This document shows positions 513 through 9,397 of a DNA stretch of 27,995 nucleotides, piece by piece. The notes below the pieces were generated by a model. The model did no database searches and was not told the DNA's origin. It worked only from the letters and a program-made list of their open reading frames with translations. Source of the stretch: Actinomycetes bacterium (GTDB lineage: Bacteria; Actinomycetota; Acidimicrobiia; Acidimicrobiales; Palsa-688). Position numbers and translations under genes: made by a program. The first letter of the stretch is position 1, and each line of letters begins with the position of its first letter. The DNA lies in NCBI GenBank assembly GCA_021827285.1, contig JAKAWM010000001.1:1-27995 (forward strand). The letters are read 5' to 3'.

Positions 513-1790
513 CTAACGCCTGGCCGGGAGACCATACGGTGCGTTGGCCAGCTCAGCTTCAATGGCGAGCAGCCGGTTGTACTTGGCCACCCGCTCGCCC
601 CGTGCTGGTGCGCCCGTCTTCAGCTGGCCGCAACCCACCGCGACGGCCAGGTCGGCAATGAAGCTGTCGGGGGTCTCGCCGGAGCGGTGGGACACCATCT
701 GCGTGTAGCCGGCCTCGTTGCAAATGGCGATGGCTTCGAGGGTCTCGCTGACCGTGCCGATCTGGTTGAGCTTTATCAGGGCGGAGTTGCCCACCTTCCG
801 GCCGATCGCCTCACGGATTATGGAGGGGTTGGTCACAAAGACATCGTCTCCCACCAGCTGGGCTCGCCCGCCTAAACGTGCGGTCAGTTTTTCCCATCCG
901 TCCCAGTCGTCCTCGGCCAAACCGTCCTCGATGGACCAGATGGGGTAGTTGGCGACCAGCGTTTCGTACCGCGCGATCATCTCGGCGGTGCTGAAGCGGT
1001 GGCCGGGGGAGTAGCGGTAGCTGCCGTCCGGCTCATGCATCTCGGACGCGGCCGGGTCGAGAGCTATGGCCACCCCCTGGGCCCCGGGGGCGTAACCGGC
1101 AGAGTTGATGGCCTCAACCAATAGGTCAAGGACCTCTTCGGGCGTGCCCAAGTTGGGCGCGAACCCGCCTTCGTCCCCCAGGCCGGTCGAGTGCTTGCGG
1201 GAATGGAGCAGGCTGCGCAAGGCCTGGTAAATCTCGGCTCCCGCCCGTAGCGCTTCGGCAAAGGTGGGAAGCCCTATGGGGGCGAGCATGAACTCCTGGA
1301 ACTCGAGGTCGTTCTGGGCGTGGGCACCGCCGTTCACCACGTTGAAGTGGGGGACAGGAAGGCGCAGCTCAGCGCCCTGAGGCGATAACCATCGGTAAAG
1401 GGGTTGACCCGCAACGGTGGCCATGGCGCGCGCCGCGGCCATGGATGTCCCCACAATCGCGTTGGCACCCAGGCGGGCCTTGTTGTCGGTACCGTCCAGC
1501 TCGATCATGGCCCGATCGAGCTCTGCCAGGCTGGCCCAGGACCGCCCGGACAGCAGGCTGCTTATTTCCGTGTTCACGTTGTTCACGGCCTTGCTGACAC
1601 CCTGGCCCTTGAAGCGCTTCTGGTCCCCGTCTCTCAGCTCTACCGCTTCACGGGTACCGGTGGAAGCTCCGGAAGGGACCCCGGCACTCACGACGGGCCC
1701 GTTGGAGAGGCGCAAGCTCACTTCGAGGGTGGGCCGTGCCCGAGAGTCGAGGATCTCGAGGGCGTGTACTTCGGCGATCTCGTAGGACAT
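513..1790 (-). CDS. eno: Enolase (phosphopyruvate hydratase), divergent type
   Basis: Likely start at ATG 1790 (MSYEIAEVHALEILDSR). Enolase motifs present: PSGASTG, NGGAHA, FQEFM, GDEGGFAP, SIEDG, LVGDD, LIKLNQIG, SHRSGET, QLKTG. The N-terminal extension in the ORF track is not enolase-like. Confidence 0.97.
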   Translation of the reverse strand: MSYEIAEVHALEILDSRARPTLEVSLRLSNGPVVSAGVPSGASTGTREAVELRDGDQKRFKGQGVSKAVNNVNTEISSLLSGRSWASLAELDRAMIELDGTDNKARLGANAIVGTSMAAARAMATVAGQPLYRWLSPQGAELRLPVPHFNVVNGGAHAQNDLEFQEFMLAPIGLPTFAEALRAGAEIYQALRSLLHSRKHSTGLGDEGGFAPNLGTPEEVLDLLVEAINSAGYAPGAQGVAIALDPAASEMHEPDGSYRYSPGHRFSTAEMIARYETLVANYPIWSIEDGLAEDDWDGWEKLTARLGGRAQLVGDDVFVTNPSIIREAIGRKVGNSALIKLNQIGTVSETLEAIAICNEAGYTQMVSHRSGETPDSFIADLAVAVGCGQLKTGAPARGERVAKYNRLLAIEAELANAPYGLPARR

Positions 1791-1882
1791 GGCGGCGTTC
1801 CTCGCTTTCTGTTCGGCTGCGTTGCTCTGCGGGCCGGCGCCGCCAGCCCCGCACCCCAACCTAGCCTGGCCCGCCAGCCGGG

Positions 1883-1969
1883 TCGAAGGGCCGAACGTCA
1901 CATGGCGATCGAAGGGCCGAACGTCACATGGCGATCGAGGGGGCGAACGTCACATGGCGATCGAAGGGC
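1883..1969. repeat. 26-bp tandem repeat, about 3.3 copies (TCGAAGGGCCGAACGTCACATGGCGA)
   Basis: Units at 1883-1908, 1909-1934 and 1935-1960 (two substitutions), plus a partial copy from 1961. Intergenic, between the radical SAM stop and the eno start. Confidence 0.95.
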
Positions 1970-2005
1970 GAGGGCCTCACGGCGGTCGGGCGGCCGCGGC
2001 CGCGC

Positions 2006-3124
2006 TCAGGCTGGCACGTACCCGCAGGCCGGGTCCTGGCCCAGGGGATCGCCAAAGCTCGCCCATGCCCGCGAGCGCGACCCGCCGCAGAGGTCGCGCA
2101 GCTCGCAGCGCCCACAGCGGCCCGAGAACTCGGCCCTGCGGATGGCCTTGAGCAACTCGTGGTCGCGATATATGGCCACGGGGTCCTCCTCCTTCACGTT
2201 CCCGAGACGGAGGGGGAGGAAACCGGCTGGAAATGCCCAGCCGTCGTGCGAGATGAAGAAGATGCCCTTGCCGTCCCTCGTCCCTGCGCTGGCCGAGTTG
2301 GACGCCTTTTCCGCTGGTCCGAGGCGATGGCGGAGCTCCTCGGACAACTCCTGGTAGAGGGGGCCAAGAGCACGGGCCGAGGCTAGGCCCCCTACCCGCT
2401 CTCGCGCTCGCTCAGCCATGACGCGGCGGTACCAGGGTGCCTCTACCGTACGCACCGCGAAACCGTAATGGGACGCGTCGTAGAGGAAGTGGCAGACATC
2501 CTCGTTCTCGGGTGGGGACAGCTCCTGCTGGTCCCGTCCTCGGCCCACCTTCACGAGAAAGAAGACCTCCCAAGCCGAGGCGCCAACCTCCTTCACGATG
2601 GCGGCCACGCCGGCCAATTCCCGGGTATTGGCGCGCATGACGGCCGTGTTGACCTGCGTCTTGAAGCCGAGGTCGGTGGCCAGCCGCAACGCAGCCAGCG
2701 TCAGCTCGAAGTGGCCCGCCACTCCCCGGATCCCCTGGTGGGTAGCTGGTGTGGCGCCGTCCAGGCTGATCGAGATGCTGCTGACCCCGAGATTACGCAG
2801 CTCGGTCAGTACCGTGGGTGTGAGCCGGGGTGTGACGCTGGGCGCCAGCGCCACGCTCAGGCCGGCCAGGCGGGCGGCTGACACCAGTTGGAACAGGTCC
2901 GGGCGCATCAGCACATCGCCCCCGGTCAGCACGAGCACGGGTAGGCGTTCCGTTGGCGAGGCCCGAAAATGGCTGAGCTTTTCGATGAGCGCCAACCCCT
3001 CGTCGGTGGTCAGCTGGCCCGGCCCCGGGTTGGGCATGGCCGAGGCCCGGCAGTGCCGGCAGGCAAGCTCGCAGGCCTGGGTGGTCTCCCAAAAGACCAG
3101 GGCCGGCGTTCTGTCGAAGTTCAC
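2006..3124 (-). CDS. Radical SAM/SPASM-domain protein (TIGR04053-like; NirJ/AhbC/AhbD/PqqE-related)
   Basis: Motifs: WETTQACELACRHC (CxxxCxxC), LTGGD, SISLDG, QVNT, and C-terminal CGRCELRDLCGGSRSRA...DPAC. Probable start GTG 3124 (VNFDRTPALVFWE); the upstream part of the listed ORF looks non-coding. Confidence 0.88.
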   Translation of the reverse strand: MNFDRTPALVFWETTQACELACRHCRASAMPNPGPGQLTTDEGLALIEKLSHFRASPTERLPVLVLTGGDVLMRPDLFQLVSAARLAGLSVALAPSVTPRLTPTVLTELRNLGVSSISISLDGATPATHQGIRGVAGHFELTLAALRLATDLGFKTQVNTAVMRANTRELAGVAAIVKEVGASAWEVFFLVKVGRGRDQQELSPPENEDVCHFLYDASHYGFAVRTVEAPWYRRVMAERARERVGGLASARALGPLYQELSEELRHRLGPAEKASNSASAGTRDGKGIFFISHDGWAFPAGFLPLRLGNVKEEDPVAIYRDHELLKAIRRAEFSGRCGRCELRDLCGGSRSRAWASFGDPLGQDPACGYVPA

Positions 3125-3157
3125 CCAAATACAATGGGTCAGGCAGACCAGCGGCGG

Positions 3158-3177
3158 GCAGGGCCGTTGGTCCCGAA
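3158..3177. promoter_or_regulatory. DosR/DevR-like (NarL/FixJ-family regulator) operator GCAGGGCCGTTGGTCCCGAA
   Basis: Compared with the mycobacterial consensus TTSGGGACTWWAGTCCCSAA, the right arm GTCCCGAA is exact and G4-G5-G6-C8 are present in both halves. Lies between the divergent radical SAM and PNPOx-like genes. Confidence 0.6.
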
Positions 3178-3318
3178 TCTGCTTGGCGTCGGTACATCGC
3201 TGCCTGCGAGGAAGGGCAAAGCCGGGCGGGCTGGGGCCACTGCGTCCCCAAGCACAGGGTGCTCGTGGGCACCCCGGCGAAGCCTGGTGGCCCTTGCCGT
3301 GGTGCAAAGATCGTGGCC

Positions 3319-3825
3319 GTGATCTTGGACATGACACCCGAGGAGGTGGAGGGCTTCCTCCGCGAGCAAGTGGTTGGCCGGGTCGGCTGCCACACGGGCG
3401 GCAGGACCTATGTGGTCCCCGTCATCTTCGCCTGGGAGGACGGCTGCGTCTACGTGTACTCGATCGAGGGCCAAAAGGTACGCATGATGAGGCAGAACCC
3501 CGAGGTCTGCTTCGAGGTGGACGAGTACCGCCCCGGTGGTAGCTGGCGGAGCGTGATAGTGCAGGGGACATACGAAGAGCTGAGCGGCGACGACACCGGC
3601 CTGACACTGCGTCTACTGGGCTCCCGCTTCGCTCGCCGAGCCAGCGGCCGGGCCAGCACGGCCGGCAGCTCAGGCGCCGAAGGCAGAGGGCAAGGGCGTA
3701 CGCCGGTGGCCTTTCGCATCCGCGCCCGCGAGGTTACGGGACGCCGGGTAAACCGCTCCTTCGAGGCGAGCGCAAAGCGGCGCGCGGGCAGGTTACTCAC
3801 CCGGCGGATGGCGAAGGGTTCCTAA
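3319..3825 (+). CDS. Pyridoxamine 5'-phosphate oxidase-like flavin-nucleotide-binding protein (NimA/PNPOx split-barrel family)
   Basis: FLREQVVGRVGC...YVVPVIFAW...GQKVRMMRQNPEVCFEVD...SWRSVIVQGTYEEL is the family pattern. Start is GTG 3319 or ATG 3331. Confidence 0.85.
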   Translation: MILDMTPEEVEGFLREQVVGRVGCHTGGRTYVVPVIFAWEDGCVYVYSIEGQKVRMMRQNPEVCFEVDEYRPGGSWRSVIVQGTYEELSGDDTGLTLRLLGSRFARRASGRASTAGSSGAEGRGQGRTPVAFRIRAREVTGRRVNRSFEASAKRRAGRLLTRRMAKGS

Positions 3826-4017
3826 TGTTCTCCGGGAGCATGTCAAACTTAGGGCCGTCGCCGTGCTGAAATGCTCCAGTTCGTGAACCCTTCTATTTTG
3901 GTAAAGCCTCTATTCCCGGGTACAGCCTGATTGAGGAGAGGTTTAGCCTACTTTTAGACGATCCGGTAAAACTACTGCTCGCTCCAGGGTATGCTGGTGG
4001 CCAGAAAGAAGGCTGCC

Positions 4018-4899
4018 ATGGCCAGATGGCATTGCCCCGTTTGTGGGCTAGATTTCGCTTTTCACTCCGAGCTCGACTGGCATATTCGTGAATCCCATGC
4101 TCTTAAGCGTACCGCCGGCCTGGCCGGGCAATTGGAGAGAAAGGCCGTGCTCAGCTGGGGCCTGCTAAAGCAATTGCACTCTGCTCAAGAGGGCCTCTCT
4201 GCGTCATTGTTCTTATGGACGACCCCAGCCCCGGTTATGACCCGTTCGGACGCCGCTAACCTTCGCCAACTGGCGGCGCGCGCCAGCGAACGGCTTTCCC
4301 GAGACCTCCGAGGAGAGGCGTTGGCGCGGATCGAGAGCCGGCTGGGCGAAGCGGTCAGGGCCGCTCAGAGCGGGCCCACCGACCATGGCCTCGCCCTGTT
4401 CGTGAGCCAGACGGGTGCCGCGGTGGTGCCCTTGCCCTTCGCGCCCCGGGAGAGGGTCGTGGTCAACCCGACCTTCGCGGTGCGCGAGTTGCTCGATGGC
4501 CTGGAGAGGTGCCCTATGTACCGGGCGCTGGTACTGCGCGGCCCCGGGTTCCGGTTGCTCGAAGGCCGCGGCGAACGCCTCAGCGAGATCCGCGACTGGC
4601 AGGTGCCGAACCCGTCGCTATGGCGTGCCGCTCGGGCCGAGGCCAACCAGCCCTGGGCCAGATGTTGGACGCCCCGGCAGCGGCGGCGGGCCGCTTTTGC
4701 AGGCCCGGGCCGGGACCGGGTTGCGGCACAGCTGGGACAACCCCCGGGCGTCGCCGGGCATATCGCCCTCGACGAACCTGGCCTAGCCCCAGTCCAAGCG
4801 TCGAACTGGCCACCAGCCTCGTGGTCCGGGAAAGCACAGCCCCGCCACGGCCGTAGAGCCCCACCGCCCGTCCCGGCACTAGCCCCGCCACGGCCGTAA
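4018..4899 (+). CDS. C2H2 zinc finger fused to a baeRF3-like (bacterial archaeo-eukaryotic release factor family 3) domain; C-terminus apparently truncated or scrambled
   Basis: N-terminus CPVCGLDFAFHSELDWHIRESH fits C-x2-C-x3-F-x5-L-x2-H-x4-H. It is followed by DHGLALFVS...VVPLPFAPRERVVVNPTFAVRELL...YRALVL...RLLEG...LSEI, which I recognise as baeRF3-like. Start is ATG 4018 (AGAAGG upstream) or ATG 3991. Confidence 0.72.
   Translation: MARWHCPVCGLDFAFHSELDWHIRESHALKRTAGLAGQLERKAVLSWGLLKQLHSAQEGLSASLFLWTTPAPVMTRSDAANLRQLAARASERLSRDLRGEALARIESRLGEAVRAAQSGPTDHGLALFVSQTGAAVVPLPFAPRERVVVNPTFAVRELLDGLERCPMYRALVLRGPGFRLLEGRGERLSEIRDWQVPNPSLWRAARAEANQPWARCWTPRQRRRAAFAGPGRDRVAAQLGQPPGVAGHIALDEPGLAPVQASNWPPASWSGKAQPRHGRRAPPPVPALAPPRP
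4740..4856 (+). pseudogene. Possible C-terminal remnant of a LacI-family regulator
   Basis: An alternative frame ends VELATSLVVRESTAPPRP*, a typical actinobacterial LacI C-terminus. No HTH or sugar-binding body is present upstream. Confidence 0.45.
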
Positions 4900-4986: not shown

Positions 4987-6381
4987 TTACTTGACGATCC
5001 CGCCCCTTGTCATCGCCTCCACCGCTAGGGCGCGATCGACTTCCTCTTCGGAGAGCAGCCCCCGCTCTAGCACCACCGTCCGCAGGTCTTTACCCTCGGC
5101 GAGCGACTGTTTCACCACTCGAGCCGCCTCCTCGTAACCGATATAGGGATTGAGAGCGGTAACGATGGCGGGTGACGAAAGAGCGTAGTTGCGGCATCGC
5201 TCGGCGTCGGCTTCCAGCCCGGCAATGCAGCGATCGGCGAACAGGCGGCTCACATTGGTGAGTAGCCGCAGCGATTCGAGGAGGTTGCGGGCAATTACAG
5301 GGAGCATAACGTTCAACTCGAAGTTCCCGCCGGCGCCGCCAAAGGCAATGGAAGCGTCGTTGCCGATGACCTGGGCCACAACCTGGGACACGGCCTCTGG
5401 TATCACCGGGTTCACCTTTCCCGGCATTATCGAGCTCCCCGGCTGGAGGTCGGGGATCCGGATCTCGGCCAACCCGGCCCTGGGCCCGCTCCCCATCCAG
5501 CGCAAGTCCGTGGCGCATTTGTAAAGGGATACGGCCACCGTCCGCAGCACGCCCGAAACTTCGACCAGGGCGTCGCGTGAACCCTGGGCTTCGAAATGGT
5601 CCCGGGCCTCCCTTAGGGGCAAGCCCAGTTCGGAGGCCAGCCGTCTTATAACCCCGGCGGCAAATCCCGGCGGGGCGTTCAGCCCAGTACCCACGGCAGT
5701 ACCACCCAGGGGTAGCTCCCCTACCCGGGGCAAGCTGGCCTCCAGGCGTTCGATGCCGTGCTCAATTGCGGTGGCATAACCGCCCATCTCTTGGCCCAAG
5801 GTTACTGGGGTGGCGTCCATCAGATGCGTACGACCGGCTTTCACCACGCCGGCAAACTCAGCTGCTTTTTGGCGGAGCGTGCTGGCCAGATGCCCGAGGG
5901 CGGGGATGAGGGCGTCCTTCACCTCGGAGGTCGCAGCTAGGTGGATGGCCGATGGGAACACATCATTGGAAGACTGGGAAGCATTGACGTGGTCATTGGG
6001 GTGCACTTGCTGGCCCATGCGCTCCGTAGCCAGCGTGGCCAGGACCTCGTTCATGTTCATGTTGGAAGAGGTACCCGAGCCGGTCTGAAAGACGTCCACG
6101 GGGAACTCGCCGTCCCACTTGCCGCCGGCTACCTCGGTGGCCGCCTCGGTGATAGCCGCAGCGATGGCGGCGTCGATGACGCCCAACTCGGCATTTTGCT
6201 GGGCAGCGGCCCGTTTCACCAGGGCAAGTGAGCGTACGAGGGAACGCTCTATGGGCTGGCCAGAAACAGGGAAGTTCTCCACTGCCCGCTGGGTTTGGGC
6301 CTGCCACTTGGCCCGGGCCGGCACCCGGACCTCGCCCATGGAGTCATGTTCCACCCGGTAGGCCTCAGTCGTACCACTCAT
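4987..6381 (-). CDS. fumC: Class II fumarate hydratase
   Basis: Motifs: [57 protein letters not shown], and the [11 protein letters not shown] signature. Likely start ATG 6381. Confidence 0.96.
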
Positions 6382-6512
6382 ACCCATGAGGGTACTCCGC
6401 AACCCGATGGGACTGCCTAAACGAAGCTACCCGTGACGGCTGGGGCAGAAGTTGTTAAAGTGACTGGCGGGGCCGGTGAGTCGGGGGACCGGTTCGTCGC
6501 GAGGAGGTAACC

Positions 6513-8228
6513 GTGAAGCGCACTCTCAGTGCTCCGCTCGCGGCTGTCCTCGCGGTTGCCCTCTCCGGGGCCTCGGTCGCGTCCGCAAGCTCGCCCCGCG
6601 CCGGGAGCCCTCCCAGCACGGCACCAACTGCCGCCGCGGGCCCCTCAGGGTCAGCCCGCCTGGCTGCCACGGAGCGTGCCCGCGCCACCCAGCTGACCGC
6701 GCTGATCCAAGCTGAGGGGGTACAGCTGGCCAAGCTGTCCGAGGTGGCCGACCAGGCGGGGGTACGCGCCCAACGCTTGGACGGGGAGCTGCGGGCAGCC
6801 GGCCAGGCGGCACAGGCAGCTCGCGCCCGGCTAGGCCAGACCAAGGCGCTTCTTCTAACTCAAGCGGTCGAGGAGTACACCAGCGGGGACCAGCTCGGTT
6901 ACCCGCTGAGCCTCCTCACGGGTACACGTCTGGTGCTAGTCGCCGGCTACGAGGCGGCGCTGGGACGCCAGATGCAAGTAGCGATCGATGGGTACACGGC
7001 AGCCCTCGCCCGAGAACAAGCCTCCGTCGCCGTCTTGGCGAGCCAGCGCCGGCTGGTGGAGTTGTCGGCCAAACGGCTCTCGGCTGATCGCTCCGCCGCC
7101 GCCCGCCAGCAGGCGGTCCTCAAGGCCACCCTCAAGGAGGTTAGGGGCGAGTTGGCGGTGGCGGTGGCCATCGTACGGCGCCAGCAGCAGGTGGCCCAGA
7201 TAGCCGAGGAAAAGGCCATGCTGGCCAGCGCCCACCAGCTGCCTCCCGAGGGACGAGCGGGGCGGCCCGGCACGTCTGCGGTAACCACGACAGCCGCTAC
7301 GACCACCACGACCATCCTGGCCAGCACCACTACCGCAGCTACGACCACCACGACCATCCTGGCCAGCACCACGACCACTTCGGCCCCGTCCAGCGATCCG
7401 GCCCGTACCTCCACCATCTACCCCACCACGCCGATTGCAGGAAGTGCCCTCTCTACTGGGATTGCAGGAAGTGCCCTCTCTACTGGCCCCGCCATTTCGA
7501 CGGTTGGGACCCCCGGACCAAGCGCCCGCCTGCGGGCCAGGAACGCAAGCGGGGCGGGTACAGGAACGGGGCTGGTCAGTACGGCATCGATGAGTGCGGC
7601 CACACCCGAACCAACCGAGCCGTCGGGTGCTAGCTCTCTGCCTTCGTCCCGCCGCCCCACCTCCTCTCGAAGCGTCACCCCGTCAAGCAGCACCACGCCC
7701 GGCAACACCACGCCGAGCAGCACCACCTCTTCGACCAGCACCACCCCGCCGAGCAGCTCTACCCCGCCCAGCAGCACTACGACTTTGGGCGCCACTACCC
7801 CGACCCCCCTGACGGCACCCACCACCACATCGACAACCACGGTCCCCGCGGGCTCGGGTGCCGCAGGGGCACCGGCCTCGGGCTGGCAAACGGCGGTCGC
7901 CTTCGCCGAGTCGCAGCTGGGCAAGCCCTATCAGTGGGCTGGCTCTGGACCGAACAGCTACGATTGCTCCGGGCTCACCATGGTTGCCTGGTCAAGAGCG
8001 GGTGTGCTCCTCCCGCACTCAGCACAGGACCAGTACAACATGACCGCCCGGGTCGCCATCGGCCATCTTTTGCCCGGGGACATGGTGTTCTTTGGCACAC
8101 CGAGCGACGTCTACCACGTTGGCATTTACATAGGCGGGGGCAAAATGGTGGACGCTCCAGAAACGGGCGAGAACGTGAGCATCCAGCCCATTTACTGGAC
8201 GAACCTCCTGGGCGGCGGGCGAGTCTGA
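6513..8228 (+). CDS. Secreted NlpC/P60 peptidoglycan endopeptidase with coiled coil and long Thr/Ser/Pro-rich linker
   Basis: AGGAGG ribosome-binding site before the GTG, then a signal peptide and an Ala/Gln-rich helical region. C-terminus reads QLGKPYQWAGSGPNSYDCSGL...GDMVFF...YHVGIYIGGGKMVDAP, giving Cys-His catalytic residues. Confidence 0.92.
   Translation: MKRTLSAPLAAVLAVALSGASVASASSPRAGSPPSTAPTAAAGPSGSARLAATERARATQLTALIQAEGVQLAKLSEVADQAGVRAQRLDGELRAAGQAAQAARARLGQTKALLLTQAVEEYTSGDQLGYPLSLLTGTRLVLVAGYEAALGRQMQVAIDGYTAALAREQASVAVLASQRRLVELSAKRLSADRSAAARQQAVLKATLKEVRGELAVAVAIVRRQQQVAQIAEEKAMLASAHQLPPEGRAGRPGTSAVTTTAATTTTTILASTTTAATTTTTILASTTTTSAPSSDPARTSTIYPTTPIAGSALSTGIAGSALSTGPAISTVGTPGPSARLRARNASGAGTGTGLVSTASMSAATPEPTEPSGASSLPSSRRPTSSRSVTPSSSTTPGNTTPSSTTSSTSTTPPSSSTPPSSTTTLGATTPTPLTAPTTTSTTTVPAGSGAAGAPASGWQTAVAFAESQLGKPYQWAGSGPNSYDCSGLTMVAWSRAGVLLPHSAQDQYNMTARVAIGHLLPGDMVFFGTPSDVYHVGIYIGGGKMVDAPETGENVSIQPIYWTNLLGGGRV
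7434..7487 (+). repeat. In-frame 27-bp tandem duplication (IAGSALSTG x2) in the NlpC/P60 linker
   Basis: ATTGCAGGAAGTGCCCTCTCTACTGG(G/C) at 7434 and 7461. A separate duplication (TTTAATTTTTILAS x2) lies at about 7285-7370. Confidence 0.9.
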
Positions 8229-8776: not shown

Positions 8777-9346
8777 TTACGGCCGGGGCGGTGGACGGCG
8801 CGGTAGGGGCGGTTCCTGGTCAGGAGGGTGTGGTGGACGATGGGGCGGCGGGGGTGGCATCGAGTCGATGCCGGGGGGCTCGCCGGGCCAAACGAGCAGC
8901 ACATCGCAAGGAGCGTGGTCGACGACAAAGCGGGTGGCGTGGCCCAGGCTGTGGGGGCCAAGCCGGGCACGGTCCCCGTCGCGGGCAGCCACCAAAAGGT
9001 CAGCGCCGTTACAAGCCTGGACCACCTCACGCTCGGGGTGCCCGCGTCGGTGGAGCAGTTCGACGTCACTGCGCCCAAGCTGCGCCGCGCCGGCAGAAAG
9101 CAGCGCCGACGCCTCTTCGGCCATGGCTTCTCCAGCGTCTTCAGCCGGGTGGCGATGATGCCCGTGGAACGCTCGCCCGAGCAATCCAGCCGCGGCGGCC
9201 TCGGCCGTTTCTGAGGGCTCTGCAGGGGTGACGTAAAGCAGGGTTACGGTGGCACTGGGAAGGCCGGACAGCACGCTGGCCGCCCCCTCTATGCAGCCGG
9301 CCCAGGTGCCTTCGACCAGCCAGACTACGACCCGCATGGGGTGCAT
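8777..9346 (-). CDS. Universal stress protein (UspA family) with Pro-rich tail
   Basis: Motifs: MRVVVWL, VTLLYV, RRGHPEREVV, ADLLVAARDG...LGPHSLGHATRFVVDHAPCDVLLV. Start is ATG 9346 or 9337. Confidence 0.88.
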   Translation of the reverse strand: MHPMRVVVWLVEGTWAGCIEGAASVLSGLPSATVTLLYVTPAEPSETAEAAAAGLLGRAFHGHHRHPAEDAGEAMAEEASALLSAGAAQLGRSDVELLHRRGHPEREVVQACNGADLLVAARDGDRARLGPHSLGHATRFVVDHAPCDVLLVWPGEPPGIDSMPPPPPHRPPHPPDQEPPLPRRPPPRP

Positions 9347-9397
9347 CTTCGCGCGCCGGAGGGCTTCGGGGCGGTCTTCGTGCAGCACGCGTCCGTT

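What the first reader, a model, noticed from the sequence alone, without database searches (positions are those of the whole stretch)
513..4899. Candidate hypoxia/dormancy module: divergent enolase, radical SAM, PNPOx-like protein and zinc-finger-baeRF under DosR/DevR-like boxes
Seen: radical SAM and eno on one strand, PNPOx-like and zinc-finger-baeRF3 on the other, with DevR-like boxes at 3158-3177 and in the repeats upstream of eno. A left half-site (TTAGGGCC, 3849-3856) precedes the baeRF gene. Established: the mycobacterial DosR regulon contains PNPOx-like flavoproteins and USPs and, from memory, a baeRF/eRF1-like protein (Rv2629). Inference: this is a low-oxygen module linking glycolysis, O2-independent radical chemistry and ribosome handling, in a lineage where I know of no such regulon.
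Basis: partly seen in the sequence, partly recalled or inferred. Interest (0 to 1): 0.7.

Follow-up and report, generated by a model that had tools for sequence, protein, structure and literature searches.

The report
DevR/DosR-type operator in an Acidimicrobiales genome
A mine-drainage actinobacterium carries a close relative of the tuberculosis dormancy regulator DevR/DosR, and one of its conserved DNA binding sites sits in this window in front of an oxygen-independent radical SAM enzyme. This extends a known low-oxygen control circuit to a new bacterial class, although the neighbouring ribosome-hibernation gene is broken here.

Summary
The genes are eno 513-1787(-), a TIGR04053 radical SAM/SPASM gene 2006-3124(-), a PNPOx-like gene 3319-3825(+) and a C2H2-zinc-finger/Balon-like (baeRF3) gene 4018-4899(+).

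**The box at 3158-3177 is real.**
- Its centre lies exactly 43.5 bp upstream of the radical SAM start codon in six loci from four genera.
- It ranks 3rd (10th with an independent matrix) among all 20-mers in the genome.
- Boxes of 16 bits or more occur 14 times against about 3 expected, and all 14 are intergenic.

**The regulator and sensor are present.**
- Contig C197 encodes a clear DevR orthologue: 250 bits to M. tuberculosis DevR, against 158 bits for the next-best hit.
- This gene has its own upstream box in six genomes.
- A kinase with a FixL-like haem-PAS domain and a DevS/DosT-like core also carries a box, and in a relative it lies in the same gene cluster as devR.

**Weaker or failed points.**
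- The eno repeats hold only weak boxes (8.5 bits), but a single copy is conserved in congeners at the same promoter spacing.
- The half-site at 3849 does not score.
- The Balon-like gene has lost about 160 codons.
- The four-gene module is not conserved beyond the genus.

Verdict: this is a new member of a known kind, a DevR/OsdR-type regulon in Acidimicrobiales. Regulation by oxygen is inferred, not shown.

The parts
513..1787 (-). eno, enolase (424 aa). It is the only enolase found in this genome.
   Evidence: TIGR01060 566 bits and Enolase_N/C domains. The ATG at 1787 aligns with the start in relatives. One copy was found in each of G000, G001, G002, G007 and G009.
1858..1863 (-). Predicted -10 hexamer TAGGTT of the eno promoter
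   Evidence: It is conserved in the window, L028, G001 and G002. In each it lies 21 nt downstream of the conserved 20-mer element. This is an inference; no transcription start was mapped.
1883..1969 (.). 26-bp tandem repeat (3.3 copies). Each full copy holds a weak DevR-like box, at 1885-1904 and 1911-1930. The copy nearest eno is centred at about -43.5 from the predicted transcription start.
   Evidence: TRF score 160. The boxes score 8.47 bits. A single-copy element is conserved in congeners at the same spacing. The element occurs nowhere else in the genome.
2006..3124 (-). Radical SAM/SPASM protein of family TIGR04053 (372 aa), the nearest relative of AhbD haem b synthase. It starts at a GTG and is probably leaderless.
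   Evidence: TIGR04053 scores 466 bits (cut-off 395), while AhbD TIGR04545 scores 249 bits (cut-off 500). Orthologues are 58-87% identical in G001, G002, G007, G009, G022 and L028.
3158..3177 (.). DevR/OsdR-type operator GCAGGGCCGTTGGTCCCGAA, centred 43.5 bp upstream of the radical SAM start codon
   Evidence: It scores 18.4 bits, rank 3 in the genome, or rank 10 with an independent matrix. The spacing is the same in six loci. The core is identical in G007.
3319..3825 (+). PNPOx-like flavoprotein (Pyridox_ox_2), divergent from the radical SAM gene. The GTG start is conserved in relatives.
   Evidence: Pfam PF12900 62 bits. The divergent pairing with the radical SAM gene is kept in L028, G001, G002 and G022. 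In the last three the box lies 45.5-46.5 bp from the PNPOx start. In the window it is 151.5 bp away.
3849..3856 (.). TTAGGGCC, an isolated left half of the box consensus and possibly a relic
   Evidence: It does not score as a site. Orthologous genes in G007 and L029 have a full box TTAGGGCAATTGGTCCCC about 190-235 bp upstream.
4018..4899 (+). C2H2 zinc finger (about 4033-4098) fused to a Balon-like/baeRF3 domain. The gene is internally deleted: the junction at about 4701 removes roughly residues 229-392 of the 425-aa homologue, and the 3' end reads on into unrelated sequence. It is probably a pseudogene.
   Evidence: The window copy scores 63.7 bits to NF052287 on its N-terminal part only. 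The homologues are 402-457 aa and carry PF18845. tblastn and blastn against P0003/L028 define the deletion. A unitig in run X1 spans the junction. The copy in G001 is also broken.

Best explanation
The 20-bp palindrome at 3158-3177 is an operator for this organism's orthologue of the actinobacterial dormancy regulator DevR/DosR (OsdR in Streptomyces). Steps 1-4 rest on sequence evidence; steps 5-6 are inferred.

1. **Regulator.** It is encoded on contig C197, behind its own box, so it probably regulates itself.
2. **Likely sensor.** This is a histidine kinase on contig C205. It has an N-terminal FixL-like haem-PAS domain with the proximal histidine conserved, a second PAS domain, a GAF domain and a DevS/DosT-like HisKA_3/ATPase core.
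3. **Box position.** The centre lies exactly 43.5 bp from the GTG start of the TIGR04053 radical SAM gene. A conserved CANNNT hexamer sits at -12 to -7 and there is no Shine-Dalgarno sequence. This fits a leaderless transcript whose promoter is switched on by a phosphorylated DevR dimer overlapping the -35 region (class II activation). In congeners the same box is equidistant from the divergent PNPOx-like gene and would serve both promoters. In this window about 106 extra bp separate it from that gene.
4. **Regulon.** The site is one of roughly 15-25 such operators in the 60%-complete genome. Other candidate targets are hydrogenase-associated Fe-S proteins, a cytochrome b-like protein, three more PNPOx-like genes, a B12-radical SAM enzyme, BioB, an alpha-glucan phosphorylase, the kinase and devR itself.
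5. **Signal (inferred).** Low O2, or NO/CO/redox state, sensed through haem.
6. **Enzyme function (inferred).** The radical SAM enzyme may be an O2-independent AhbD-like tetrapyrrole decarboxylase that backs up ChdC.

The eno promoter of this genus carries a weak box at the same spacing, triplicated here, so eno may be a secondary target. The zinc-finger/Balon-like ribosome-hibernation gene has strong boxes in related genera. In this genome it is a decayed remnant.
For: **Regulator and sensor**
- The C197 response regulator scores 249.8 bits (E 1.8e-73) to M. tuberculosis DevR (3c3w). The next hit, VraR, scores 158 bits. The recognition helix aligns as ylaEKTVKNYVSnllak.
- An unknown 214-aa gene plus devR form an operon with a box of 11-22 bits upstream in six genomes.
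- The C205 kinase has a box 58 bp upstream of its start.
- Its first PAS domain matches FixL haem-PAS (E 4e-16) with the proximal His aligned. Its ATPase domain matches DosT/DevS (E about 1e-13).
- In G007 the kinase, PNPOx genes, the 214-aa gene and devR form one cluster with two boxes.

**The box in the window**
- The box centre is at -43.5 from the radical SAM start in six loci from four genera, while the flanking sequence diverges.
- The motif fits both published consensus sequences: TTSGGGACTWWAGTCCCSAA (PMC2275270) at 14 of 20 positions with all core G/C kept, and OsdR AGGGCCGATCGGCCCT (PMC5069765) at 12 of 16.

**Genome-wide signal**
- Sites of 16 bits or more: 14 observed against 3.25 +/- 1.2 in third-order Markov simulations. 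All 14 are intergenic, where 19% would be expected (p about 1e-10).
- Sites of 14 bits or more: 28 observed against 14.4 expected, and 22 of 28 are intergenic.
- With a matrix trained without orthologous or own-genome sites, the window site ranks 10th and the top 10 are all intergenic.
- Several top sites lie 41-47 bp from a start codon.

**Targets**
- Cytochrome b-like genes carry a box in both G000 and G007. A Pyr_redox_2-domain gene also carries one in each (GltD in G000, a short unnamed ORF in G007), but their orthology was not checked.
- ChdC is present in all five genomes tested that carry the radical SAM gene.
- AhbD is known in Gram-positives that use the coproporphyrin-dependent haem pathway (PMC13564367).
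Against: - No expression or binding data exist. The signal and the direction of regulation are inferred.
- Raw counts of the core GGGAC-N4-GTCCC are not enriched (6 against 5.3 expected).
- Simple matching to the two literature consensus sequences gives only weak intergenic enrichment (p about 0.01-0.02).
- The strong statistics rely on a matrix derived from relatives' sites. Some of those sites were found with a pattern modelled on this motif.
- The gene calls used for the intergenic test come from my own crude caller.
- Many high-scoring sites flank ordinary genes such as gltD, serC/serA-like, bioB, polA, LacI, a CLC channel and a sulfatase. The regulon is therefore not cleanly hypoxic, and some sites may belong to other factors.
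- The kinase lacks the FixL arginine that contacts bound O2. It is also not adjacent to devR in this fragmented assembly.
- In the window the PNPOx gene is 151.5 bp from the box and its -10-like hexamer has lost the final T.
- TIGR04053 is not AhbD: TIGR04545 scores 249 bits, below its cut-off of 500.
Confidence: 0.7

Rival explanations
1. The palindrome is a real, conserved operator, but a different transcription factor binds it, for example another NarL/LuxR-family regulator or an unrelated dimeric factor. The resemblance to DevR boxes would then be coincidental, and the regulon would answer to a signal unrelated to oxygen.
For: The genome has at least 12 GerE-domain genes. A second pair, a GAF-HisKA_3 kinase with a NarL-type regulator, lies on C210. 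Many flanking genes are housekeeping. Counting matches to the literature consensus gives only weak enrichment.
Against: A box lies upstream of the devR operon in six genomes and upstream of the DevS-like kinase. DevR's DNA-contacting residues are conserved. The half-site and spacing (GGGMC-N4-GKCCC) are those of DevR and OsdR. The C210 regulator is closer to ChrA and VraR than to DevR.
Confidence: 0.12
2. The gene arrangement is accidental. Under this reading eno is a housekeeping gene with its own unrelated regulator site (the TGTGACGTT element), and the 26-bp triplication is neutral slippage. The Balon-like fragment is junk beside a rearrangement breakpoint. Only the radical SAM/PNPOx pair is regulated, so there is no four-gene module.
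For: The four-gene order is found only in the near-identical contig L028. Family-level relatives place the Balon-like gene next to ferredoxin and Hox hydrogenase genes, or near devR and a USP-like gene. eno is single-copy. The eno element scores only 8.5 bits, starts with a CRP-like TGTGA, and is unique in the genome. Contigs from other runs diverge at 4788.
Against: The eno element keeps exactly the same 21-nt distance to a -10 hexamer as the radical SAM box does. Its right arm, GGCCCT, is a perfect OsdR-type arm. This reading is compatible with the best explanation for the radical SAM/PNPOx pair. It disputes only eno and the module concept.
Confidence: 0.45
3. The boxes are chance matches in GC-rich DNA and have no regulatory role.
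For: The core pattern count equals the Markov expectation.
Against: All 14 top sites are intergenic, a 4-fold excess over simulation. The position is identical in six orthologous promoters from four genera. Autoregulatory sites are conserved.
Confidence: 0.03

Closest known systems
DevR/DosR-DevS/DosT dormancy regulon of Mycobacterium tuberculosis
   Same: - The NarL-family regulator aligns with M. tuberculosis DevR over nearly its whole length (residues 3-209; 249.8 bits), with the recognition-helix residues kept.
- The operator is a 20-bp palindrome with GGG..C/G..CCC arms at the same spacing.
- The primary site overlaps the -35 region.
- The regulator gene has its own upstream box.
- Both regulons hold PNPOx-like proteins, ferredoxin or hydrogenase-type redox proteins and a Balon-family ribosome factor (Rv2629 in M. 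tuberculosis). In this lineage the Balon-family member is seen in related genera only.
   Different: - The sensor has a FixL-like haem-PAS domain, a second PAS and one GAF domain, not two GAF domains with haem in GAF-A.
- The kinase is not adjacent to devR in this assembly.
- The gene upstream of devR is an unknown 214-aa protein, not a USP.
- The arms prefer GGGCC/GGTCC over GGGAC/GTCCC.
- Few USPs are found (3 hits), and none has a box that I saw.
- Targets include an AhbD-like radical SAM enzyme and several central-metabolism genes.
- No experimental data exist.
OsdR/OsdK (SCO0204/SCO0203) of Streptomyces coelicolor (PMC5069765)
   Same: It is a DevR orthologue outside the mycobacteria. Its palindromic consensus AGGGCCGATCGGCCCT matches the window box at 12 of 16 positions. 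Boxes cluster around the regulator's own locus.
   Different: OsdR has been shown to bind its sites and to control development and stress genes. Here everything is predicted. The lineage is the class Acidimicrobiia from mine drainage, and the target set differs.
Balon (AOC03_06830) ribosome hibernation factor family (PMC10901736)
   Same: The full-length homologue P0003 matches NF052287 over 345 of 361 positions (146.7 bits). It also matches the Balon chain 8rd8_B (E 1.6e-11), and it carries PF18845 baeRF_family3.
   Different: The score is below the equivalog cut-off of 330. An N-terminal C2H2-type zinc finger is fused to it, which the Balon papers I searched do not mention. The window copy lacks about 160 central residues and is probably non-functional.
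AhbD haem b synthase (radical SAM coproheme decarboxylase)
   Same: It shares the radical SAM/SPASM architecture and is the closest named family (249 bits). The genomes carrying it also have ChdC, like the coproporphyrin-pathway Gram-positives reported to hold AhbD (PMC13564367).
   Different: It belongs to the separate, uncharacterised family TIGR04053 and falls well below the AhbD cut-off. Its substrate is unknown.

Membership tests
DevR/DosR-type regulon | NarL/LuxR-family response regulator orthologous to DevR, with the DNA-contacting residues conserved | tested here: met
   L005:2302-2961 scores 249.8 bits to 3c3w DevR against 158 bits for the next hit. The EKTVKN motif is conserved.
DevR/DosR-type regulon | Cognate HisKA_3 sensor kinase with a haem-based gas-sensing domain | tested here: inconclusive
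   The C205 kinase has an ATPase domain most similar to DosT/DevS. Its first PAS domain is similar to FixL haem-PAS with the proximal His aligned. It is clustered with devR in G007. Haem binding and the pairing with DevR were not shown. The domain type differs from DevS, being PAS rather than GAF.
DevR/DosR-type regulon | 20-bp palindromic operator with GGGAC/GTCCC-type arms separated by 4 bp | tested here: met
   The window box matches the published DosR consensus at 14 of 20 positions with all core positions kept. It matches the OsdR consensus at 12 of 16 (sequence; consensus from PMC2275270 and PMC5069765).
DevR/DosR-type regulon | Operators more frequent than chance and located in promoters | tested here: met
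   14 observed against 3.25 expected at 16 bits or more, and 14 of 14 are intergenic. An independent matrix gives the same picture.
DevR/DosR-type regulon | Regulator controls its own gene | tested here: met
   A box lies upstream of the operon of the 214-aa gene and devR in six genomes. This shows the sites are present; it does not show that they function.
DevR/DosR-type regulon | Induction of targets by hypoxia, NO or CO, dependent on the regulator | not testable with these tools
   None of the six public runs found to hold this DNA is on record as RNA, so expression could not be examined.
Balon / baeRF3 ribosome hibernation factor | Full-length aeRF1-like protein matching the family model | tested here: not met
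   The window copy matches model positions 1-141 of 361 only. It lacks about 160 residues relative to P0003. The intact homologue P0003 scores 146.7 bits, below the cut-off of 330, and 72.9 bits to PF18845, above the cut-off of 31.5.
Balon / baeRF3 ribosome hibernation factor | Binds the ribosomal A site with EF-Tu and inhibits translation | not testable with these tools
   Known for Balon, Rv2629 and Msmeg1130 (PMC10901736). Not tested for this clade.
AhbD haem b synthase (TIGR04545) | Score above the equivalog cut-off | tested here: not met
   248.8 bits against a cut-off of 500. The protein instead meets TIGR04053 (466 bits, cut-off 395).
Enolase (TIGR01060) | Score above the equivalog cut-off with both domains present | tested here: met
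   566 bits against a cut-off of 300, with Enolase_N and Enolase_C.
PNPOx-like split-barrel flavoprotein (PF12900) | Pfam gathering score | tested here: met
   62.3 bits against a cut-off of 27. Matches to F420-dependent PPOX and Nim subfamilies are only weak.

The most novel reading that the evidence does not exclude
The DevR circuit in Acidimicrobiales would be an ancient, rewired form of the actinobacterial dormancy system. It would combine three features:
- a FixL-type haem-PAS domain grafted onto a DevS-type kinase as the oxygen sensor;
- conserved core outputs that include a zinc-finger-bearing Balon-type ribosome hibernation factor, which would make the DosR-Balon link (Rv2629) ancestral to the phylum;
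- the uncharacterised TIGR04053 radical SAM enzyme acting as the long-sought oxygen-independent replacement for coproheme decarboxylase ChdC in actinobacteria.
Probability: 0.2. Interest if true: 0.7.

Novelty: new member of a known kind. Interest (0 to 1): 0.5.

Why it matters
DevR/DosR is studied mainly as the switch for tuberculosis dormancy, and it has been shown outside the mycobacteria essentially only in Streptomyces.

Finding a close orthologue, its operators and a partly overlapping target set in uncultured Acidimicrobiales from mine drainage suggests that the circuit is old and widespread in the phylum. The overlapping targets are PNPOx-like proteins, redox and Fe-S proteins and, in related genera, a Balon-type ribosome factor.

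It also yields three concrete, testable predictions:
- a haem-PAS sensor feeding DevR;
- a fixed -43.5 activator site on leaderless promoters;
- an AhbD-like radical SAM enzyme as a conserved low-oxygen output, which bears on how coproporphyrin-pathway bacteria make haem without O2.

For this window alone the pay-off is modest. One operator is solid, one candidate is weak and one gene is dead.

Tried and rejected
- **Core pattern counts.** I counted GGGAC-N(2-6)-GTCCC and GGGNC-N4-GNCCC against third-order Markov simulations and found no excess. This measure was too crude and I dropped it.
- **Ranking by the M. tuberculosis consensus alone.** The top hits flank LacI, MarR, a CLC channel and an arabinofuranosidase, which gives no coherent picture. 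A lineage-derived matrix replaced it.
- **The C210 pair as DosS/DosR.** This GAF-HisKA_3 kinase and NarL-type regulator were rejected. DevR is only the fifth PDB hit (102 bits, against ChrA at 130), and no DevS/DosT GAF domain matched.
- **Four-gene synteny in family-level relatives.** Not found.
- **Pattern search with up to 2 mismatches in five genomes.** Totals were no higher than the reversed-pattern control. Only the positions of the hits were informative.
It is absent at the corresponding place in L028, and the shorter intergenic regions of G001, G002 and G022 do not contain it. I did not pursue it.
- **Half-site at 3849.** It does not score.
- **P0003 against solved structures.** It matched Balon of P. 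urativorans only. It did not match the mycobacterial homologues at E <= 0.01.
- **Contigs of four public runs laid on the window.** Runs X2, X3 and X5 have no cover over 4694-4787, and X2 and X3 show loose ends at 4788. I draw no conclusion about other alleles from this.
- **Literature searches.** Searches for TIGR04053, and for DosR together with Acidimicrobiia, found nothing.
- **G012.** This unpublished genome enters only the tallies.

Full report
**1. What is in the window**

The window is the whole of contig C177 of a 2.24-Mb, 285-contig, about 60%-complete metagenome-assembled genome. Close homologues are named Acidimicrobiales or Actinomycetota. The DNA is held almost completely by a mine-drainage metagenome run.

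The finding's span contains four genes.
- **eno**, 513-1787(-): TIGR01060 at 566 bits.
- **Radical SAM/SPASM**, 2006-3124(-): TIGR04053 at 466 bits (cut-off 395). The nearest named family is AhbD at 249 bits (cut-off 500).
- **PNPOx-like**, 3319-3825(+): PF12900.
- **Zinc finger + Balon-like**, 4018-4899(+). It starts with a classical C-x2-C-x12-H-x4-H zinc finger. Residues 59-199 then match the first 141 of 361 positions of NF052287, the Balon-type (AOC03_06830) ribosome hibernation factor family.

The gene content was otherwise correct, including the unusual zinc-finger-baeRF3 call.

**2. The Balon-like gene is broken here**

Homologues are 402-457 aa and carry PF18845. The closest is P0003, which is 425 aa and 89% identical.
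- P0003 residues 1-239 align to window 4018-4725, and residues 393-421 align to 4702-4788.
- DNA alignment to its contig L028 stops at 4701.
- About 160 codons, covering most of the baeRF3 domain, are therefore missing in frame. After 4788 the frame runs into unrelated sequence.
- A unitig from run X1, probably the source sample and so not independent, spans 3918-4787 without a difference. The deletion is therefore not a scaffolding artefact.
- A congener, G001, also has a broken copy with a stop codon and another internal gap.
- Intact P0003 matches NF052287 over 345 of 361 positions (146.7 bits, below the equivalog cut-off of 330). It also matches the Balon chain 8rd8_B at E 1.6e-11.

**3. 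The box at 3158-3177**

GCAGGGCCGTTGGTCCCGAA lies in the 194-bp divergent region between the radical SAM and PNPOx genes.
- It matches the published DosR consensus TTSGGGACTWWAGTCCCSAA (PMC2275270) at 14 of 20 positions, including every core G and C.
- It matches the Streptomyces OsdR consensus AGGGCCGATCGGCCCT (PMC5069765) at 12 of 16.

Radical SAM orthologues (58-87% identical) exist in L028, G001, G002, G007, G009 and G022.
- In the window and five of these loci (all except G009), the best-scoring 20-mer is centred exactly 43.5 bp upstream of the first base of the GTG start. The surrounding sequence diverges.
- A CANNNT hexamer occupies -12 to -7, and no Shine-Dalgarno sequence is present. 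I infer leaderless transcripts and a class II activator position.
- In G001, G002 and G022 the same box is 45.5-46.5 bp from the GTG of the divergent PNPOx gene, which also has a GANNNT at -12 to -7. One palindrome there serves two back-to-back promoters.
- In L028 and the window, extra DNA pushes the PNPOx start to 90.5 and 151.5 bp from the box.

**4. Is the motif more than chance?**

Crude counts say no. GGGAC-N4-GTCCC occurs 6 times against 5.3 expected.

A symmetrised 20-position matrix from 14 sites in relatives has the consensus CTAGGGACCATGGTCCCTAG. It gives a different answer.

| Threshold | Observed | Expected (third-order Markov) | Intergenic |
|---|---|---|---|
| 16 bits or more | 14 | 3.25 +/- 1.2 | 14 of 14 |
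| 14 bits or more | 28 | 14.4 | 22 of 28 |

- Intergenic DNA is 19% of the genome by my own gene caller, so 14 of 14 gives p about 1e-10.
- The window site scores 18.4 bits and ranks third.
- A matrix without any radical SAM-orthologous or own-genome site still ranks it tenth, with all ten top sites intergenic.
- Simple matching to the two literature consensus sequences gives only weak intergenic enrichment, p about 0.01-0.02.

The caveats are the home-made gene calls and the partly pattern-selected training sites.

**5. The regulator and sensor exist**

- Of 12 GerE-domain genes, the one on C197 (219 aa) scores 249.8 bits (E 1.8e-73) to M. tuberculosis DevR. The next hit, VraR, scores 158 bits. 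The recognition helix is conserved.
- It follows an unknown 214-aa gene. A box lies 113 bp upstream of that pair here, and at the equivalent place in G001, G002, G007, G009 and G022.
- Orthologues of 85-92% identity occur in G001, G002, G007, G009, G020 and G022, which between them hold every high-identity (64-71%) copy of the Balon-like gene and five of the six radical SAM matches found among the relatives. Copies of 60-70% identity occur in most of the order.
- On C205 a box lies 58 bp upstream of a 604-aa PAS-PAS-GAF-HisKA_3-HATPase kinase flanked by two PNPOx-like genes.
- Its first PAS domain resembles the haem-PAS of FixL (E 4e-16), with the proximal histidine aligned. FixL's O2-contacting arginine is replaced. 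Its ATPase domain resembles DosT and DevS.
- In G007 the genes form one cluster: PNPOx, box, kinase, PNPOx, box, 214-aa gene, devR.
- The other candidate pair, on C210, is not DevR-like.

**6. The candidate regulon in G000**

Genes with a strong box upstream fall into four groups.
- **Redox and Fe-S:** a sulfhydrogenase-beta-like Fe-S protein divergent from a HoxE-like 2Fe-2S protein; a cytochrome b-like protein divergent from SCO1, also a target in G007; and GltD. A Pyr_redox_2-domain gene also has a box in G007, but its orthology to GltD was not checked.
- **Radical SAM and flavoproteins:** a B12-radical SAM enzyme, BioB and another PNPOx-like protein.
- **Carbon and amino-acid metabolism:** SerC divergent from a 2-hydroxyacid dehydrogenase, an alpha-glucan phosphorylase and, more weakly, alanine dehydrogenase.
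- **Regulation:** the kinase and devR.

In G007 further boxes precede a Zn-alcohol dehydrogenase, a YwiC-like protein, a SLAC1/TehA-type channel, and the ferredoxin/Balon-like divergent pair.

Parallels exist in mycobacteria. A PNPOx-family gene next to dosR is DosRS-dependent in M. avium (PMC11876180). Several flanking genes are plainly housekeeping, so not every site need be functional or DevR-specific.

**7. eno and the repeat**

- The 26-bp repeat (1883-1969) carries GAAGGGCCGAACGTCACATG twice, at 8.47 bits each. Taken alone this is not remarkable, since sites of 8 bits or more occur about once per 9 kb.
- In L028, G001 and G002, however, a single copy of ATGTGACGTT(C/G)GGCCCTT is conserved amid diverged flanks. 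It always lies 21 nt upstream of a TAGGTT hexamer. That is the same box-to-hexamer distance as in the radical SAM promoter.
- The element is absent upstream of eno in other genera and occurs nowhere else in the genome.
- One arm is GTGAC rather than GGGAC.
- I rate DevR control of eno at about even odds. The triplication is specific to this genome.
- eno is the only enolase found in G000 and in four relatives that are 91-95% complete. It is therefore not a dedicated hypoxic isozyme.

**8. The module idea**

- Only L028 has His-phosphatase, eno, radical SAM, PNPOx and an intact Balon-like gene in the window's order. There a Tn3-family transposase follows.
- G001 has eno, radical SAM and PNPOx. 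G002 and G022 have radical SAM and PNPOx. G007 has the radical SAM gene alone.
- The Balon-like gene elsewhere sits beside ferredoxin, HypA and a Hox-type hydrogenase. In G020 it lies a few kb from devR.
- The conserved unit is therefore the radical SAM/PNPOx divergent pair with its box. The rest is local.

**9. Function of the radical SAM enzyme (inference)**

TIGR04053 is uncharacterised, and I found no literature on it. Its nearest relative, AhbD, decarboxylates coproheme without O2. AhbD has been noted in Gram-positives that use the coproporphyrin pathway (PMC13564367). All five genomes I tested that carry this gene also have ChdC. A low-oxygen back-up for ChdC is an attractive guess, at about 35%, but it is untested.

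**10. Verdict**

- This is a new member of a known kind: a DevR/OsdR-type regulon in Acidimicrobiales.
- Its distinctive details are a haem-PAS sensor, a fixed -43.5 site on apparently leaderless promoters, and an AhbD-like target.
- In this window it comprises one solid operator, one doubtful one and a dead Balon-like gene.
- Genome G012 is unpublished.

Noticed in passing
window 4018-4130, and homologues P0003-P0040: All roughly 45 homologue clusters of this Balon-like clade begin with a conserved C2H2-type zinc finger (MA.WHCPVCGL.FAFHSELDWHIRE.H) fused to the aeRF1-like body. The two Balon papers I searched do not mention such a fusion.
   Followed up: partly
window 4788 (junction towards fumC, 4987-6402): Contigs from two other runs (X2, X3) match the window from 4788 rightwards but carry different sequence to the left. 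The closest relative contig has a Tn3-family transposase after the Balon-like gene. This points to a rearrangement breakpoint at the end of the remnant.
   Followed up: partly
G000:C197:1441-2085 (L005): A 214-aa protein with no Pfam or NCBIfam match is always encoded directly upstream of devR, behind the autoregulatory box, in six genomes. It occupies the position of the USP Rv3134c in M. tuberculosis.
   Followed up: no
G000:C205:1163-2977 (L002): The sensor kinase combines a FixL-like haem-PAS domain (proximal His aligned, distal Arg replaced by Leu), a second PAS domain and a GAF domain with a DevS/DosT-like transmitter. PNPOx-like genes flank it on both sides.
   Followed up: partly
window 8777-9397 (-): A universal stress protein (PF00582, 36 bits) lies about 4 kb from the module. 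No box of 5 bits or more is near it.
   Followed up: partly
L029-L031 (ENA and NCBI contigs carrying P0006): In a related genus the zinc-finger/Balon-like gene lies between a small ferredoxin and a hypA-hoxHYUF-type NAD-linked [NiFe] hydrogenase operon. A strong box lies between the ferredoxin and the Balon-like gene.
   Followed up: partly
window 7284-7377, 7433-7486 and 7676-7777 (inside the NlpC/P60 gene 6513-8228): Several tandem repeats (periods 42, 27 and 15-18) lie within the NlpC/P60 protein gene. They are probably a repetitive linker region.
   Followed up: no
G000:C197:3007-4605 (L005): An ADP-forming acetyl-CoA synthetase-like gene (ATP-grasp_5, Succ_CoA_lig and Ligase_CoA_2 domains) lies convergent with devR. 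It is also next to the kinase-devR cluster in G007, which hints at a link to fermentative ATP formation.
   Followed up: no
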